DNA of 64,000 nt from Candidatus Doudnabacteria bacterium (GTDB taxonomy: Bacteria; Patescibacteriota; Doudnabacteria; UBA920). A model generated the notes under the pieces. The model ran no database searches. It worked only from the letters and a program-made list of their open reading frames with translations, and was not told where the DNA came from. Location of the stretch: contig CAVYGQ010000001.1 in assembly GCA_963768175.1 (NCBI GenBank), positions 840,717 to 904,716 on the forward strand. Reading direction: 5' to 3'. Position numbers and translations under genes: made by a program. Below are positions 40,175-45,648 of the stretch, piece after piece (the stretch's first letter is position 1; each line of letters opens with the position of its first letter).

Positions 40175-40432
40175 ATTAAATACAAATAAATTGATGCCTG
40201 AGCTTGTCGAAGGCTCAATTTATTTGTCCCTTCGACTTTGCTCAGGGGACAAATAAATTTAAATTTGACGTTTTTTACGTCAACAGTATATCAAATCTAA
40301 TAAAAATAAGCAAATAAAGGCAAAATATATAATAAATTATGCCACAATTATTGACGTTATGTCAATTTTGATGTATTGTTATCGGTCAAAACAAAAACAC
40401 CTGACGAGGTTAACAACGCAAAGGAGGTAGTT

Positions 40433-40876
40433 ATGAATATTTTGGTTGTAGAAGACGATCCGAAGCATATGAAGGAGGCTGTTGAGGTCATTCAAGCCGC
40501 CGGACACGAAGTGATACAGGCAACTGATATGTATAGAGCCAGGGAGTATCTCTACGATGACCGCCCCGACGGAGTAATTACTGACCTTTTTATTCCGGAT
40601 GGTGCGGGAGGAGTAAATGAAGATGCGGATCAGCCGCGAGGCCTAGGAATTGTCTTAATGGCGCAGCAGGAAGGCATTCCTTGCATCATCTGCACCGCAG
40701 GATATCACCACGGATCCAAGTACAACTGGATCTGCGGACTCGGGCGGAGGTTGCACTGGCCACCGATGGTAGATCAGCTTCAGGATCGGCACAACTACGA
40801 GGTGGAAAGCCAGTCGAAAGACTGGCAAGAAGCGCTCGACACCCTGGTCAAGATCATAGTGGCCAAGGGATATTAA
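40433..40876 (+). CDS. Stand-alone receiver (CheY-like)-related protein, GC-rich islet E
   Basis: ATG 40433 follows AAAGGAGG. MNILVVEDDP ... PDGVITDLFIP ... CIICTAGYHH. Confidence 0.6.
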   Translation: MNILVVEDDPKHMKEAVEVIQAAGHEVIQATDMYRAREYLYDDRPDGVITDLFIPDGAGGVNEDADQPRGLGIVLMAQQEGIPCIICTAGYHHGSKYNWICGLGRRLHWPPMVDQLQDRHNYEVESQSKDWQEALDTLVKIIVAKGY

Positions 40877-42369: not shown

Positions 42370-42788
42370 TTACTCTTCTGGTTCAATAAGGGGTTCGGCT
42401 TTTTCCACGGGAGTTTTCTTGCCGCTGCCCCCGCTTACTCCGTTGCCGCCCATAACGCACTTGCCGGAAAATTGGGCACCGTCTTCCACCCTAAAAACCG
42501 TGCAGACAATATCCCCTAAAACTTTTGCCGTACTCTGTAATATCAAATGCCCGGATATTTTTAAGTTACCCTGTATTTCCCCGCCGACCACGGCATTGCC
42601 CGCCAAAATGTCTGCCGCAATTTTGGCCCCGGGACAACAAATACGCTCTGGCTAGTTTTGACTTTGCCGCTTACCTGGCCTTCTATTTTTATGTTGCCTT
42701 CGCTGTTTAAATCTCCTTGAATTTTAACGCTGGGGCCGACTACGGTTTCGGCCGGGCTGTTTAGGTTCTCGTCTAAGGTTTTGTCCAT
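42370..42788 (-). pseudogene. Bactofilin-like protein split by a frameshift
   Basis: ORF 42561-42788 (..VKIQGDLNSEGNIKIEGQVSGKVKTSQSVFV) and ORF 42370-42606 (AGNAVVGGEIQGNLKISGHLILQSTAKVLGDIVCTVFRVEDGAQFSGKCVM) together give a bactofilin beta-helix repeat. The frames switch at the CCCCGGG run near 42627-42633. Confidence 0.65.
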
Positions 42789-43793: not shown

Positions 43794-43989
43794 TTTATCT
43801 TTGAACAACGGGCATCATTGGTCTTAGAAATATTTCAATCCAATGGTGCCCGTTGTTACCTTTTGTTATAGACGCCCCATAATGGGCGGGTTTTGTCATA
43901 TATGATATAAAGTGGATAATTTTGGTTGACCAAAGGGCAAAAATTTGCTAAAATTGTAATACATATATCACATACGATAGTTTCCCTTT

Positions 43990-44075
43990 GGCGTCATCCT
44001 GAGCGTAGCGAAGGATCTCATTAAAGAAAGAGATTCTTCACCCTTCGGATGCTACTTCAGGTTCAGAATGACGCC
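43990..44075. repeat. Palindromic MITE/RPE-like element, intergenic copy 2
   Basis: GGCGTCATCCTGAGCGTAGCGAAGGATCTC...AGAGATTCTTCACCCTTCGGATGCTACTTCAGGTTCAGAATGACGCC. Confidence 0.8.
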
Positions 44076-44094
44076 TTAGGAAAGAAAATATTAT

Positions 44095-45648
44095 ATGCAA
44101 AACCTTATAAAGGATCAGCAGAAAATCGGCCAGTTTATAGCCGAAGTCCGTGAGCTTAAAGGCTTTACCCAAAGCCAGTTTGCCAAAAGCTTAAAAACCA
44201 GCCAGTCAGCCGTAGCCAGGATGGAAAGCGGCCAGCAAAACTTAACTACAGAGATGCTGGCTAAGATTAGCGCAGTTTTGAACCATGAAATTATTACGTT
44301 GGCCGACAAGTCGGTAAATTTTAAAATAGAAGGCGGGCGGAAACTTTCGGGAAGGGTCGCGGTTAATACTTCCAAGAATGCCGCGGTGGCGCTGTTGTGC
44401 GCTTCTTTGCTTAATGAAGGTAAAACTATTTTTAAGAATGTGCCTAAAATAGAGGAAGTCTACCGGGTAATTGAAGTTTTGGTCAGTCTTGGCGTCTCGG
44501 TAAAATGGCAGGGCGCGGATGTGGAAATTTTGCCGGGCAAAAAAATTACCATAAATAAAATAGACAAAGAAGCCGCGGTTAAAACCAGAAGCGTTCTTAT
44601 GCTGCTTGGGCCTTTGGCTCATATTCTTCCCGCTTTTAACCTGCCTTTGGCCGGCGGCTGCAAACTGGGCGAACGGACCGTGAGGCCGCATTTGTTTGCT
44701 TTGGAAAAGCTTGGAGTTAAAATTCAGACCCATCATGACCATTACGCCGTAAGCTCGGCTAAAGCTCCCGCCAAAGGCGGATCCGCCTCCGGCGGAAAAA
44801 CCGCGGAGGTAGTGCTTTACGAAATGGGTGACACAGTGACGGAAAACACGCTTATGGCCGCGGCAAAAATAAACGGCGTGACCACCATCAAGCTGGCCTC
44901 TTCCAATTACATGGTGCAGGATTTATGTCATTTTTTGCAAAGTTTGGGCGTAAAAATTGAAGGCGTGGGTACCTCCACCTTAAAAGTGCATGGCAAACCG
45001 CACATTAACCAGCGTGTGGTCTTTTATTTAAGCGAAGACCCCATAGAAGCCATGCTGTTTTTGTCTTTGGCTGTCACCACAAATTCTTCCATAACCGTTG
45101 AGCGCTGCCCCATAGACTTTTTGGAGCTGGAACTGTTGAAATTGGAAAAGATGGGGTTTAAGTACCGGATTATTAAGCGTTATAAAAGCCATAACGGTAT
45201 TACCAATTTGGCAGATATTAAGACTTTCCCGTCTAAATTAATCGCGCTGGAAGAAAAAATCCACCCGTTGACGTCCTCGGCCGGAATTAATATAGATAAC
45301 CTGCCGTTTTTTGTGCCCATTGCCACCCAGGCCAAAGGCACCACGCTGATTCACGACTGGGTTTACGAAAATCGCGCTATTTACTATTTGGAATTAAATA
45401 AGCTGCGGGCCAATATAATTTTGGCCGACGCCCACCGCGTTTACATAGACGGCCCGACCGAACTTAAAGCAGGCGAAGTCATTTGTCCCCCTGCCCTGCG
45501 CCCGGCCGCGATAATTCTAATTGCGATGTTAGCCGCCAAAGGCACCTCTATTCTCCGCAACGTTTATTCCATAAACCGCGGCTATGAGAATTTGGTGCAG
45601 CGATTACAGAAGCTCGGAGCCAAGATCGAAATGATACATGGCATGTAA
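44095..45648 (+). CDS. murA: UDP-N-acetylglucosamine 1-carboxyvinyltransferase with N-terminal XRE-type HTH domain
   Basis: 517 aa. Residues 1-70, IGQFIAEVRELKGFTQSQFAKSLKTSQSAVARMESGQQNLTTEMLAKISAVL, form a Cro/C1 HTH. The rest is MurA (KLSGRVAVNTSKNAAVALLCASLL, LAGGCKLGERTVRPH with the active-site Cys retained). In-frame AKGGSASGG insert. Confidence 0.85.
   Translation: MQNLIKDQQKIGQFIAEVRELKGFTQSQFAKSLKTSQSAVARMESGQQNLTTEMLAKISAVLNHEIITLADKSVNFKIEGGRKLSGRVAVNTSKNAAVALLCASLLNEGKTIFKNVPKIEEVYRVIEVLVSLGVSVKWQGADVEILPGKKITINKIDKEAAVKTRSVLMLLGPLAHILPAFNLPLAGGCKLGERTVRPHLFALEKLGVKIQTHHDHYAVSSAKAPAKGGSASGGKTAEVVLYEMGDTVTENTLMAAAKINGVTTIKLASSNYMVQDLCHFLQSLGVKIEGVGTSTLKVHGKPHINQRVVFYLSEDPIEAMLFLSLAVTTNSSITVERCPIDFLELELLKLEKMGFKYRIIKRYKSHNGITNLADIKTFPSKLIALEEKIHPLTSSAGINIDNLPFFVPIATQAKGTTLIHDWVYENRAIYYLELNKLRANIILADAHRVYIDGPTELKAGEVICPPALRPAAIILIAMLAAKGTSILRNVYSINRGYENLVQRLQKLGAKIEMIHGM

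What the first reader, a model, noticed from the sequence alone, without database searches (positions are those of the whole stretch)
44095..45648. MurA fused to an N-terminal XRE/Cro-type helix-turn-helix domain
The first 70 or so residues (QKIGQFIAEVRELKGFTQSQFAKSLKTSQSAVARMESGQQNLTTEMLAKISAVL) are a canonical Cro/C1 HTH. They continue without a stop into a complete MurA with the active-site Cys loop (AGGCKLGERTVRPH). A DNA-binding domain on the first committed peptidoglycan enzyme suggests autoregulation or moonlighting. It is not a standard MurA architecture.
Basis: partly seen in the sequence, partly recalled or inferred. Interest (0 to 1): 0.5.

Follow-up and report, generated by a model that had tools for sequence, protein, structure and literature searches.

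The report
Self-regulating cell-wall enzyme MurA with DNA-binding head
In this candidate-phyla-radiation bacterium, and in hundreds of related species, the first committed enzyme of cell-wall synthesis (MurA) carries a built-in DNA-binding domain, and comparative evidence indicates that this domain sits on a conserved palindrome in the gene's own promoter, so the enzyme probably represses its own production.

Summary
ORF 44095-45648 (+) is one uninterrupted 517-aa protein with an XRE/Cro-type HTH (Pfam HTH_3, aa 15-63) joined to a full MurA-like enolpyruvyl transferase (aa 75-514) that keeps its catalytic Lys, Cys, Arg and Asp residues.

It is not an assembly artefact. The same fusion is encoded in at least 504 GTDB species genomes, and all of the best 80 carry Patescibacteria/CPR labels except one mislabelled bin. 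The window is closest to Doudnabacteria.

New here: almost every fusion gene is preceded by a 16-bp palindrome, ATATCA-N4-TGATAT. I found 53 perfect sites, all within 250 nt upstream of the gene, and none in about 918 kb of flanking DNA. A symmetric operator variant (ATAGCA...TGCTAT) co-occurs 15/15 with an S36T change at the N-cap of the recognition helix, at three or more separate places in the tree.

The window has two operators flanking its promoter, 72 bp apart. Relatives show 62 or 72-73 bp.

Divergent family members have lost the catalytic residues but keep the HTH and the operator, and they sit next to unfused murA-murB or mur-ligase operons.

Best reading: a bifunctional, autorepressing "trigger enzyme". 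Enzyme activity and ligand control of DNA binding are inferred, not shown. I found no paper describing it.

The parts
44095..45648 (+). HTH-MurA fusion gene (517 aa plus stop)
   Evidence: Single ORF. Pfam HTH_3 plus EPSP_synthase. NCBIfam MurA subfamily above cutoff. AF2 model with mean pLDDT 86.3.
44098..44292 (+). XRE/Cro-type helix-turn-helix domain (aa 2-66; model helices 2-21, 26-33, 37-44, 52-62)
   Evidence: HTH_3 at aa 15-63. Helices from the AF2 model. Q37, S38, A39, A41, R42, E44, G46, Q48 and N49 are invariant in 85 family members.
44200..44226 (+). Ser36 plus the recognition helix (aa 36-44, SQSAVARME)
   Evidence: Ser36 is Thr in exactly the 15 loci whose operator is ATAGCA/TGCTAT.
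44284..44316 (+). Interdomain linker (aa 64-74)
   Evidence: pLDDT below 50 at aa 68-71. No PDB chain aligns before aa 75.
44317..45636 (+). MurA-like enolpyruvyl-transferase module (aa 75-514)
   Evidence: Best PDB sequence hits are all MurA (5ujs, 1.7e-53). Foldseek top hits are MurA with TM (target) 0.85-0.93. K94, N95, C189, R194, D401, R469 and R495 are 100% conserved in 79 intact relatives.
44659..44661 (+). Codon of active-site Cys189 (equivalent to E. coli Cys115)
   Evidence: Aligned to the Cys of PGGCAIGxRP in 5ujs and 5u4h. Cys in 79/79 intact relatives.
44767..44796 (+). 10-aa insertion (APAKGGSASG, aa 225-234) peculiar to this genome
   Evidence: Absent from more than half of the 120 homologues. 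pLDDT below 50. The DNA contains the palindrome GGCGGATCCGCC.
43893..43908 (.). Distal operator TTGTCATATATGATAT, just upstream of the -35 box
   Evidence: Matches. PWM 12.9 bits. Aligned and invariant in close relatives.
43926..43954 (+). Sigma-70-like promoter: TTGACC, 17-nt spacer, TAAAAT with TG extension
   Evidence: Consensus scan, 10 of 12 matches. Conserved in relatives.
43965..43980 (.). Proximal operator ATATCACATACGATAG, just downstream of the -10 box and the presumed transcription start
   Evidence: Matches. PWM 10.5 bits. Its centre lies 72 bp from the distal site.
43981..44090 (+). Window-specific insertion of about 110 nt forming a long hairpin leader, followed by AGGAAAG (44078-44084) before the ATG
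   Evidence: Absent from L001, L002, L004, L009 and L012, where the ATG follows the proximal operator within about 8 nt. RNA fold -46.1 kcal/mol, z = -5.6. Not repeated elsewhere in the window.

Best explanation
The gene encodes a bifunctional enzyme-repressor, a 'trigger enzyme'. The C-terminal 440 residues are a MurA-type UDP-GlcNAc enolpyruvyl transferase with an intact catalytic set. The N-terminal XRE-type HTH binds, presumably as a dimer, to a 16-bp palindrome with consensus ATATCA-N4-TGATAT in the gene's own promoter. In most lineages the palindrome overlaps the -10 box and transcription start. In the Doudnabacteria-type arrangement seen in the window, two copies bracket the promoter. 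The distal copy is at 43893-43908, upstream of the -35 box. The proximal copy is at 43965-43980, just after the -10 box. Their centres are 72 bp apart, about seven helical turns, which suggests cooperative or looped binding. Occupancy would block RNA polymerase, so the MurA level represses its own synthesis.

Shown here: the fusion, its conservation, the operator, its exclusive association with this gene, and protein-operator covariation. Inferred: repression rather than activation, dimer or tetramer binding, and catalytic activity. Speculative (about 0.35): binding of UDP-GlcNAc, PEP or UDP-MurNAc to the MurA fold, through its known open/closed transition, modulates DNA binding and so couples transcription to the precursor pool.
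For: Domain calls and fold.

Fusion conserved: 120/120 top homologues and 504 GTDB species.

Operator: a palindrome is visible upstream of nearly all 79 loci. There are 53 perfect 12/12 matches, all within 250 nt upstream of the gene, against 0 in the remaining ~918 kb. A PWM score of 10 bits or more is reached in 77/79 loci against 2 background hits in ~910 kb.

Covariation: the HTH motif TTQSA occurs in 15 loci, and all 15 have ATAGCA...TGCTAT. TSQSA loci have ATATCA...TGATAT, with two hybrid sites. The Thr/GC state appears at three or more separate places in a tree built from the MurA part alone. Both half-sites change together, as expected for a symmetric dimer.

Two-operator spacing is quantised at 62 or 72-73 bp.

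The recognition helix is invariant across 85 members.

Relatives that lost Cys189, Arg194 and Arg469 still keep the HTH and the operator. They lie divergent from unfused murA-murB or mur-ligase operons.

The same palindrome, in the same -35/-10 position, precedes Gp49/RelE-like toxin plus XRE-antitoxin operons whose HTH is homologous. That is a classic autorepression layout.

No second MurA-like gene is present in the 64-kb window or within ±6 kb in 79 loci.
Against: There is no experiment: DNA binding, repression and catalysis are all inferred.

MurA enzymes are normally monomers, so the dimerisation the palindrome requires has no identified interface.

The window's own two operators are the weakest in the family (10/12 matches each; 12.9 and 10.5 bits). 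A 110-nt hairpin insertion separates them from the ATG, so regulation in this particular genome could be altered.

The residue equivalent to E. coli Asp369 is Ala in 78/79 intact members, and the protein scores below the TIGR01072 equivalog cutoff. Full MurA activity is therefore not certain.

Whole genomes could not be searched for a second MurA or for further operators.

The S/T to T/G rule does not transfer to the TA antitoxins, where TTQSN goes with ATATCA. The contact assignment is therefore only suggestive.
Confidence: 0.78

Rival explanations
1. The window protein is mainly a transcription factor whose MurA-like module is only a ligand sensor with no catalysis. The real MurA would be encoded elsewhere in the genome, as in the lineages that carry degenerate copies.
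For: Degenerate HTH-pseudoMurA proteins exist next to unfused MurA genes. The window protein is below the murA equivalog cutoff and has Ala at the Asp369-equivalent position.
Against: K94, N95, C189, R194, D401, R469 and R495 are 100% conserved in 79 intact relatives, whereas the degenerate copies lose them quickly. No second MurA-like gene is present in the window or within ±6 kb of 79 loci. PRK09369 is above its cutoff.
Confidence: 0.12
2. The palindrome is bound by a different XRE protein, such as a TA-type antitoxin or a separate repressor, or is simply a promoter element. The fused HTH would have another target.
For: The same 18-mer also precedes toxin-antitoxin operons with their own XRE protein. 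Its 3' half often doubles as an extended -10 box, TGATATAAT.
Against: The operator variant tracks a substitution in the fused HTH itself, 15/15, at three or more tree positions. No perfect site occurs at other promoters in ~918 kb. Distal copies lie upstream of the -35 box, so they are not -10 boxes. Both half-sites change symmetrically.
Confidence: 0.07
3. The HTH is a protein-protein interaction module, like the XRE-type HTH of RodZ that binds MreB. It would tether MurA to a cytoskeletal or divisome partner rather than to DNA.
For: RodZ is a precedent for a non-DNA-binding XRE fold in cell-wall morphogenesis (general knowledge). A bactofilin gene lies 1.5 kb upstream.
Against: The best Pfam matches are the DNA-binding HTH_3, HTH_31 and HTH_19 families, and HTH_25 (RodZ) was not reported. 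The operator evidence and the protein-DNA covariation are not explained by this idea.
Confidence: 0.03
4. The fusion is an artefact: two adjacent genes joined by a sequencing or assembly error.
For: None found.
Against: The continuous frame is present in 120/120 homologues and in 80 independent genome loci from many studies.
Confidence: 0.005

Closest known systems
Trigger enzymes with a fused DNA-binding domain: BirA (biotin ligase/bio repressor), PutA (proline dehydrogenase/put repressor) and NadR (XRE-type HTH plus NMN adenylyltransferase/ribosylnicotinamide kinase). Recalled from general knowledge.
   Same: An N-terminal DNA-binding domain sits on a metabolic enzyme, and the protein targets a palindromic operator at the promoter of its own pathway gene. 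NadR, as I recall, also uses a Cro/C1-type HTH.
   Different: The enzyme is MurA, the first committed step of peptidoglycan synthesis, for which I found no fused or enzyme-borne transcription factor described. The effector logic, well known for BirA (biotinyl-AMP) and PutA (redox state and membrane binding), is unknown here. The lineage is CPR only.
Canonical bacterial MurA (E. coli, E. cloacae, C. jejuni 5ujs)
   Same: Same two-domain inside-out alpha/beta barrel fold (TM about 0.9). Conserved Lys22, Asn23, Cys115, Arg120, Asp305, Arg371 and Arg397 equivalents. Flexible Cys loop (low pLDDT at aa 189-193).
   Different: Identity is only about 25-31%. There is an extra 74-residue HTH plus linker. 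The Asp369 equivalent is Ala. The score is below the TIGR01072 equivalog cutoff. Known MurA control is post-translational (ClpCP/ReoM proteolysis in Firmicutes, UDP-MurNAc feedback), not self-transcriptional (general knowledge).
XRE-family antitoxins of Gp49/RelE(HigB)-like toxin-antitoxin modules
   Same: A homologous HTH (40-54% identity over aa 15-66; recognition helix T[KT]QSN[VI]AR[MI]E). The identical palindrome TATATCATATATGATATA lies between the -35 and -10 boxes of their own operon.
   Different: These are stand-alone antitoxins of about 100 aa paired with a toxin, with no enzyme module. They probably indicate where the DNA-binding domain and its operator came from.
RodZ (XRE-type HTH used in cell-wall morphogenesis)
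   Same: An XRE fold attached to the cell-wall machinery.
   Different: The RodZ HTH binds MreB, not DNA. Here an operator and protein-DNA covariation point to DNA binding.

Membership tests
XRE/Cro-C1 helix-turn-helix (Pfam HTH_3, PF01381) | Profile match above the curated threshold | tested here: met
   45.6 bits against a cutoff of 23, aa 15-63.
XRE/Cro-C1 helix-turn-helix (Pfam HTH_3, PF01381) | Five-helix bundle with helix 2, turn and helix 3 | tested here: met
   AF2 helices at 2-21, 26-33, 37-44 and 52-62, with pLDDT 80-91.
XRE/Cro-C1 helix-turn-helix (Pfam HTH_3, PF01381) | Sequence-specific binding to a palindromic operator | tested here: inconclusive
   Strong comparative support: an exclusive palindrome and covariation. 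There is no binding experiment.
MurA (UDP-N-acetylglucosamine 1-carboxyvinyltransferase) | Profile match above the curated threshold | tested here: inconclusive
   PRK09369 subfamily at 313 bits, above its cutoff of 297. TIGR01072 equivalog at 304 bits, below 392.7. NF009470 at 208 bits, below 552.
MurA (UDP-N-acetylglucosamine 1-carboxyvinyltransferase) | MurA/EPSPS two-domain fold that is closer to MurA than to AroA or NikO | tested here: met
   Foldseek ranks 1-43 are all MurA (E 1e-38 to 1e-32). NikO gives 1e-29 and AroA 1e-25. phmmer gives MurA 1e-53 and AroA 1e-7.
MurA (UDP-N-acetylglucosamine 1-carboxyvinyltransferase) | Catalytic and PEP-binding residues (E. coli K22, C115, R120, D305, R371, R397) | tested here: met
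   K94, C189, R194, D401, R469 and R495 are present and 79/79 conserved.
MurA (UDP-N-acetylglucosamine 1-carboxyvinyltransferase) | Asp369 equivalent | tested here: not met
   Aligned residue is Ala467 (PPALRP), Ala in 78/79. The alignment has a 1-residue indel here, so the assignment is approximate.
MurA (UDP-N-acetylglucosamine 1-carboxyvinyltransferase) | Enolpyruvyl transfer to UDP-GlcNAc; sole or essential MurA of the cell | not testable with these tools
   No assay is possible. Only the 64-kb window and ±6 kb flanks could be searched, and they hold no second copy.
Trigger enzyme / bifunctional enzyme-repressor (BirA, PutA, NadR type) | One polypeptide with an enzyme domain and a DNA-binding domain | tested here: met
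Trigger enzyme / bifunctional enzyme-repressor (BirA, PutA, NadR type) | Controls genes of its own pathway | tested here: inconclusive
   The operator lies in the gene's own promoter in 77/79 loci. In the degenerate copies it lies between that gene and murA-murB or mur-ligase operons. Binding itself is not shown.
Trigger enzyme / bifunctional enzyme-repressor (BirA, PutA, NadR type) | DNA binding is switched by substrate or product of the enzyme | not testable with these tools
   This is inference only. Retention of the MurA fold in catalytically dead copies is compatible with a sensor role.

The most novel reading that the evidence does not exclude
HTH-MurA is a one-protein homeostat for cell-wall precursor flux in CPR bacteria. 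The open/closed or UDP-MurNAc-locked state of the MurA fold would allosterically set the affinity of the HTH dimer or tetramer for its operators, so that transcription of murA reads the UDP-sugar pool directly. In some lineages this would extend to murB, ddl and mur-ligase genes. The catalytically dead copies beside unfused murA would be caught-in-the-act examples of an enzyme turning into a dedicated ligand-sensing transcription factor.
Probability: 0.35. Interest if true: 0.8.

Novelty: new variant of a known kind. Interest (0 to 1): 0.62.

Why it matters
MurA is the gate of peptidoglycan synthesis and the target of fosfomycin. Its known control is post-translational, and I found no enzyme-borne transcriptional control described for any Mur enzyme.

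The fusion, its operator and a specificity-determining residue are conserved across hundreds of CPR species. These organisms are uncultured, have very few transcription factors, and have almost no experimentally defined regulons.

This analysis supplies a ready-made, testable regulator-operator pair, including a natural specificity swap (Ser36 with T:A versus Thr36 with G:C). It also supplies a natural series from bifunctional enzyme to pseudo-enzyme regulator, which bears on how ligand-sensing transcription factors evolve from enzymes.

Practically, automated annotation calls these proteins plain 'MurA' and misses the regulatory half. It also labels the catalytically dead copies as enzymes.

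Tried and rejected
- **Riboswitch or known RNA in the leader.** An Rfam gathering scan of the whole window found only 12 tRNAs.
- **The 5' hairpin as a repeated element.** Its 25-mer core occurs only once in the window, even at up to 3 mismatches. It is absent from close relatives, so it is a window-specific insertion and not part of the conserved mechanism.
- **A wider regulon.** No other perfect operator was found in the 64-kb window or in ~918 kb of flanks.
- **Metagenome scan for the exact 18-mer.** It returned 120 loci. 22 lie next to HTH-MurA and 13 next to toxin-antitoxin operons. Most of the rest are AT-rich contigs with no recurrent neighbouring gene. No additional regulon member emerged.
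- **A second MurA.** None was found in the window or in the flanks of intact fusions. The only apparent hit, L007/L008, is a palindromic contig artefact.
- **Conserved synteny with other mur genes for intact fusions.** Only one of 79 loci has murB nearby. The window gene stands alone between a DUF4446 gene and a P-type ATPase gene.
- **Literature.** Six full-text searches found no description of an HTH-MurA protein. One paper merely lists HTH_3 as a domain that co-occurs with PF00275.
- **The representative-library search with the HTH alone.** It mostly returned contig-end fragments of the same fusion, plus unrelated multi-HTH repeat proteins.
Full report
**1. What is in the window**

Positions 44095-45648 (+) form one uninterrupted ORF of 517 codons.
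- Pfam places an XRE/Cro-type HTH_3 domain at aa 15-63 (45.6 bits, cutoff 23) and an EPSP_synthase-superfamily domain at aa 79-504 (E 1e-47).
- NCBIfam identifies the enzyme part as MurA. The subfamily model PRK09369 scores 313 bits against a cutoff of 297. The stricter equivalog model TIGR01072 scores 304 bits against 392.7.
- Every significant PDB sequence hit that covers the enzyme part is a MurA (best 5ujs, 1.7e-53), and no chain aligns before residue 75.
- An AlphaFold2 model (mean pLDDT 86.3, pTM 0.81) shows a helical bundle with helices at 2-21, 26-33, 37-44 and 52-62. It also shows a low-confidence linker at 68-71 and a confident two-lobed MurA body.
- By Foldseek, the 43 best structural neighbours are all MurA, with TM-scores of 0.85-0.93 on the target. 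NikO and AroA follow.

**2. The fusion is a conserved gene**

- The 120 best homologues in the 5.8-billion-protein collection are 69-90% identical, 502-535 aa long, and all carry both Pfam domains. Sources name them only as 'UDP-N-acetylglucosamine 1-carboxyvinyltransferase' from Doudnabacteria or Patescibacteria.
- A scan of one genome per GTDB species found 504 genomes encoding a relative. The best 80 loci (59-90% identity) carry Doudnabacteria, Kerfeldbacteria, Taylorbacteria, Liptonbacteria, Nomurabacteria, Parcubacteria, Peribacteria or Gracilibacteria labels.
- The window's closest relatives are Doudnabacteria-type MAGs (L001 and L002, 89-90%).
- Relative to most homologues, the window protein has a private 10-residue insertion (aa 225-234). 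It lies in a surface loop that the model leaves disordered.

**3. Catalytic equipment**

The residues that align with E. coli Lys22, Asn23, Cys115, Arg120, Asp305, Arg371 and Arg397 are K94, N95, C189, R194, D401, R469 and R495. Each is conserved in 79 of 79 intact relatives. The assignment of E. coli numbers rests on general knowledge of MurA motifs.

One deviation stands out. The position aligned with Asp369 is Ala467, and it is Ala in 78/79. It sits in a strongly conserved PPALRP motif next to a one-residue indel.

No second MurA-like gene occurs in the 64-kb window or within ±6 kb of the fusion in 79 other genomes. I therefore consider the protein a probable working MurA, at about 0.7-0.75. 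This was not and could not be tested here.

**4. A conserved operator**

I printed the 110 nt upstream of each of the 79 orthologous starts. This revealed a 16-bp palindrome, ATATCA-N4-TGATAT, whose centre is usually TATA, CATA or TATG.
- With 12 specified positions (ATA[T/G]CA N4 TG[A/C]TAT) there are 53 perfect matches. All lie within 250 nt upstream of an HTH-murA start, and none lies in the remaining ~918 kb of fetched DNA.
- A symmetrised weight matrix scoring 10 bits or more finds a site in 77 of 79 loci. One exception has only 18 nt of upstream sequence. The same threshold gives two background hits in ~910 kb.
- In many Paceibacteria-type loci the 3' half-site runs into TGATATAAT, ending about 7 nt before the ATG. 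That reads as an extended -10 box of a leaderless or near-leaderless transcript, so a bound protein would occlude RNA polymerase (inference).

**5. Protein-operator covariation**

Fifteen loci have Thr instead of Ser at window position 36, the residue capping the recognition helix (TTQSA instead of TSQSA). All fifteen have the symmetric operator variant ATAGCA...TGCTAT. The 64 Ser loci have ATATCA...TGATAT, apart from two sites with one half-site of each type.

In a neighbour-joining tree built from the MurA part only, the Thr/GC state appears at three or more separate places. These are L024/L025, nested among Ser/TA loci; L062, alone; and the L061-L067 clade.
- The two half-sites change together, which is the signature of a two-fold symmetric dimer.
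- The change tracks a residue of the fused HTH itself, which argues that this protein reads the site rather than some other repressor.
- The rest of the recognition surface (Q37, S38, A39, A41, R42, E44, G46, Q48, N49) is invariant in all 85 aligned family members.
- A caveat applies. In homologous toxin-antitoxin antitoxins, TTQSN goes with ATATCA, so the one-residue, one-base assignment is suggestive and not proven.

**6. Anatomy in the window**

Two operator copies are present: a distal TTGTCATATATGATAT at 43893-43908 and a proximal ATATCACATACGATAG at 43965-43980. Between them lies a sigma-70-like promoter, with TTGACC at 43926-43931, a 17-nt spacer, and TG-extended TAAAAT at 43949-43954.

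Their centres are 72 bp apart. Other loci with two sites show 62 bp (L012, L020), 72 bp (L013, L014, L015, L022) or 73 bp (L026). The two classes differ by one helical turn, at roughly 6 and 7 turns. That pattern is what cooperative binding on one face of the DNA, or looping, would predict (inference).

Both window sites are imperfect (10/12 matches each). The window also differs from its close relatives by an insertion of about 110 nt (43981-44090) between the proximal operator and the ATG.
- The insertion folds into a long hairpin (-46.1 kcal/mol, z = -5.6).
- It is followed by AGGAAAG at 44078-44084.
- In the relatives, the ATG follows the operator within about 8 nt.

The conserved control elements are therefore present here, but this genome has a private structured leader whose effect is unknown.

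**7. Pseudo-enzyme relatives**

More distant full-length members (P0138, P0155, P0156, P0167, P0178, P0240; 33-42% identical to the query) keep the HTH. Their HTH identity to intact members averages 52%, against 35% for the enzyme part. They have lost Cys189 (6/6), Arg194 (5/6) and Arg469 (5/6).
- Three of them lie next to unfused mur genes. P0138 and P0155 are divergent from an unfused murA (438-452 aa)-murB operon. P0167 lies near a mur-ligase gene and an unfused murA. All three overlap a downstream ddl or mur-ligase gene.
- The operator lies in the short upstream or shared intergenic region. L081 has a perfect site immediately after a TTGACA box. L087 and L088 have perfect sites, and L086 has 11/12.
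- P0156 follows NUDIX and NTP-transferase genes, each preceded by an 11/12 site.
- The dead enzyme module of P0138 is closer to the window's MurA module (39% identity) than to its neighbour's unfused MurA (25%). It therefore descends from the fused lineage.

In those genomes the protein can only be a regulator, yet it retains the whole MurA fold. This is the best, though indirect, hint that the fold also serves as a sensor.

**8. Origin of the DNA-binding head**

I scanned metagenome contigs for the exact 18-mer TATATCATATATGATATA, and the scan returned 120 loci.
- 22 lie next to an HTH-MurA gene.
- 13 lie 1-42 nt upstream of Gp49/RelE-like toxin genes that are followed by an XRE antitoxin. 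That antitoxin's HTH is 40-54% identical to the window's, with the palindrome placed between TTGACA and the -10 box.
- Most of the rest are AT-rich contigs with no recurrent neighbouring gene.

The HTH and its operator thus look like a module shared with, and perhaps taken from, autorepressed toxin-antitoxin operons. No further regulon member emerged.

**9. Comparison with what is known**

Functionally this resembles trigger enzymes that carry their own DNA-binding domain: BirA, PutA and NadR (general knowledge). NadR is the nearest in design, with a Cro/C1-type HTH on a nucleotide-metabolism enzyme.

It differs in the enzyme (MurA), the pathway (peptidoglycan), the lineage (CPR) and the unknown effector logic. 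Known MurA regulation is proteolytic or by feedback inhibition (general knowledge).

Six full-text searches found no description of this protein. One paper only tabulates HTH_3 among domains that co-occur with PF00275. The architecture is therefore visible in databases but apparently uninterpreted. I found no published description of the operator, the covariation or the pseudo-enzyme series.

**10. Verdict**

- The autoregulation idea is supported by strong comparative evidence, but not by experiment.
- Bifunctionality is probable.
- Ligand coupling is speculative.
- I rate it a new variant of a known kind (enzyme-repressor fusions), with interest 0.62.

Noticed in passing
window 43981-44090: An insertion of about 110 nt, absent from the closest relatives, forms a very stable hairpin (-46 kcal/mol, z = -5.6) between the proximal operator and the murA start. 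Its arms (GGCGTCATCCTGAGCG... / ...TTCAGAATGACGCC) look like a REP/MITE-type palindromic element, but it occurs only once in the window.
   Followed up: partly
window 42370-42788 (- strand): A bactofilin gene appears split into two overlapping ORFs: 42561-42788 for the N-terminal part and 42370-42606 for the C-terminal part (Pfam Bactofilin positions 49-97). This suggests a frameshift, a pseudogene or a sequencing error.
   Followed up: no
window 40288-40303 and 40359-40374: Two weak operator-like sites, each with 2 mismatches (ATATCAAATCTAATAA and ATGTCAATTTTGATGT), lie 71 bp apart. They sit just upstream of a response-regulator-like ORF (40376-40876) and downstream of a TrmB-like gene. The spacing resembles the murA operator pair, but this may be chance: the window has 8 such matches against 2.3 expected.
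   Followed up: no
window 44767-44796: A private 10-aa insertion (APAKGGSASG) sits in a MurA surface loop. Its DNA contains the perfect palindrome GGCGGATCCGCC, which hints at a small hairpin-mediated insertion.
   Followed up: partly
metagenome loci L110, L134, L156, L157, L171, L174, L193, L199 and others: Gp49/RelE-like toxin plus XRE-antitoxin operons carry exactly the same palindrome (TATATCATATATGATATA) between TTGACA and the -10 box. Their antitoxin HTH is homologous to the MurA-fused HTH.
   Followed up: partly
L081 6624-7940, L086 3768-5126, L087 95-1411: Unfused MurA genes of 438-452 aa lie next to catalytically dead HTH-pseudoMurA genes. Databases would annotate both as MurA.
   Followed up: partly
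L007/L008 (contig CAYIHW010000023.1): The contig is a perfect inverted duplication around its midpoint, with two mirrored copies of the gene. This is almost certainly an assembly artefact.
   Followed up: yes
L084 6686-6701 and 7242-7257: In one degenerate-copy locus, operator-like sites (11/12) precede a NUDIX gene and an NTP-transferase (sugar nucleotidyltransferase-like) gene, both upstream of the HTH-pseudoMurA gene. This is a possible extension of the regulon to nucleotide-sugar metabolism.
   Followed up: no
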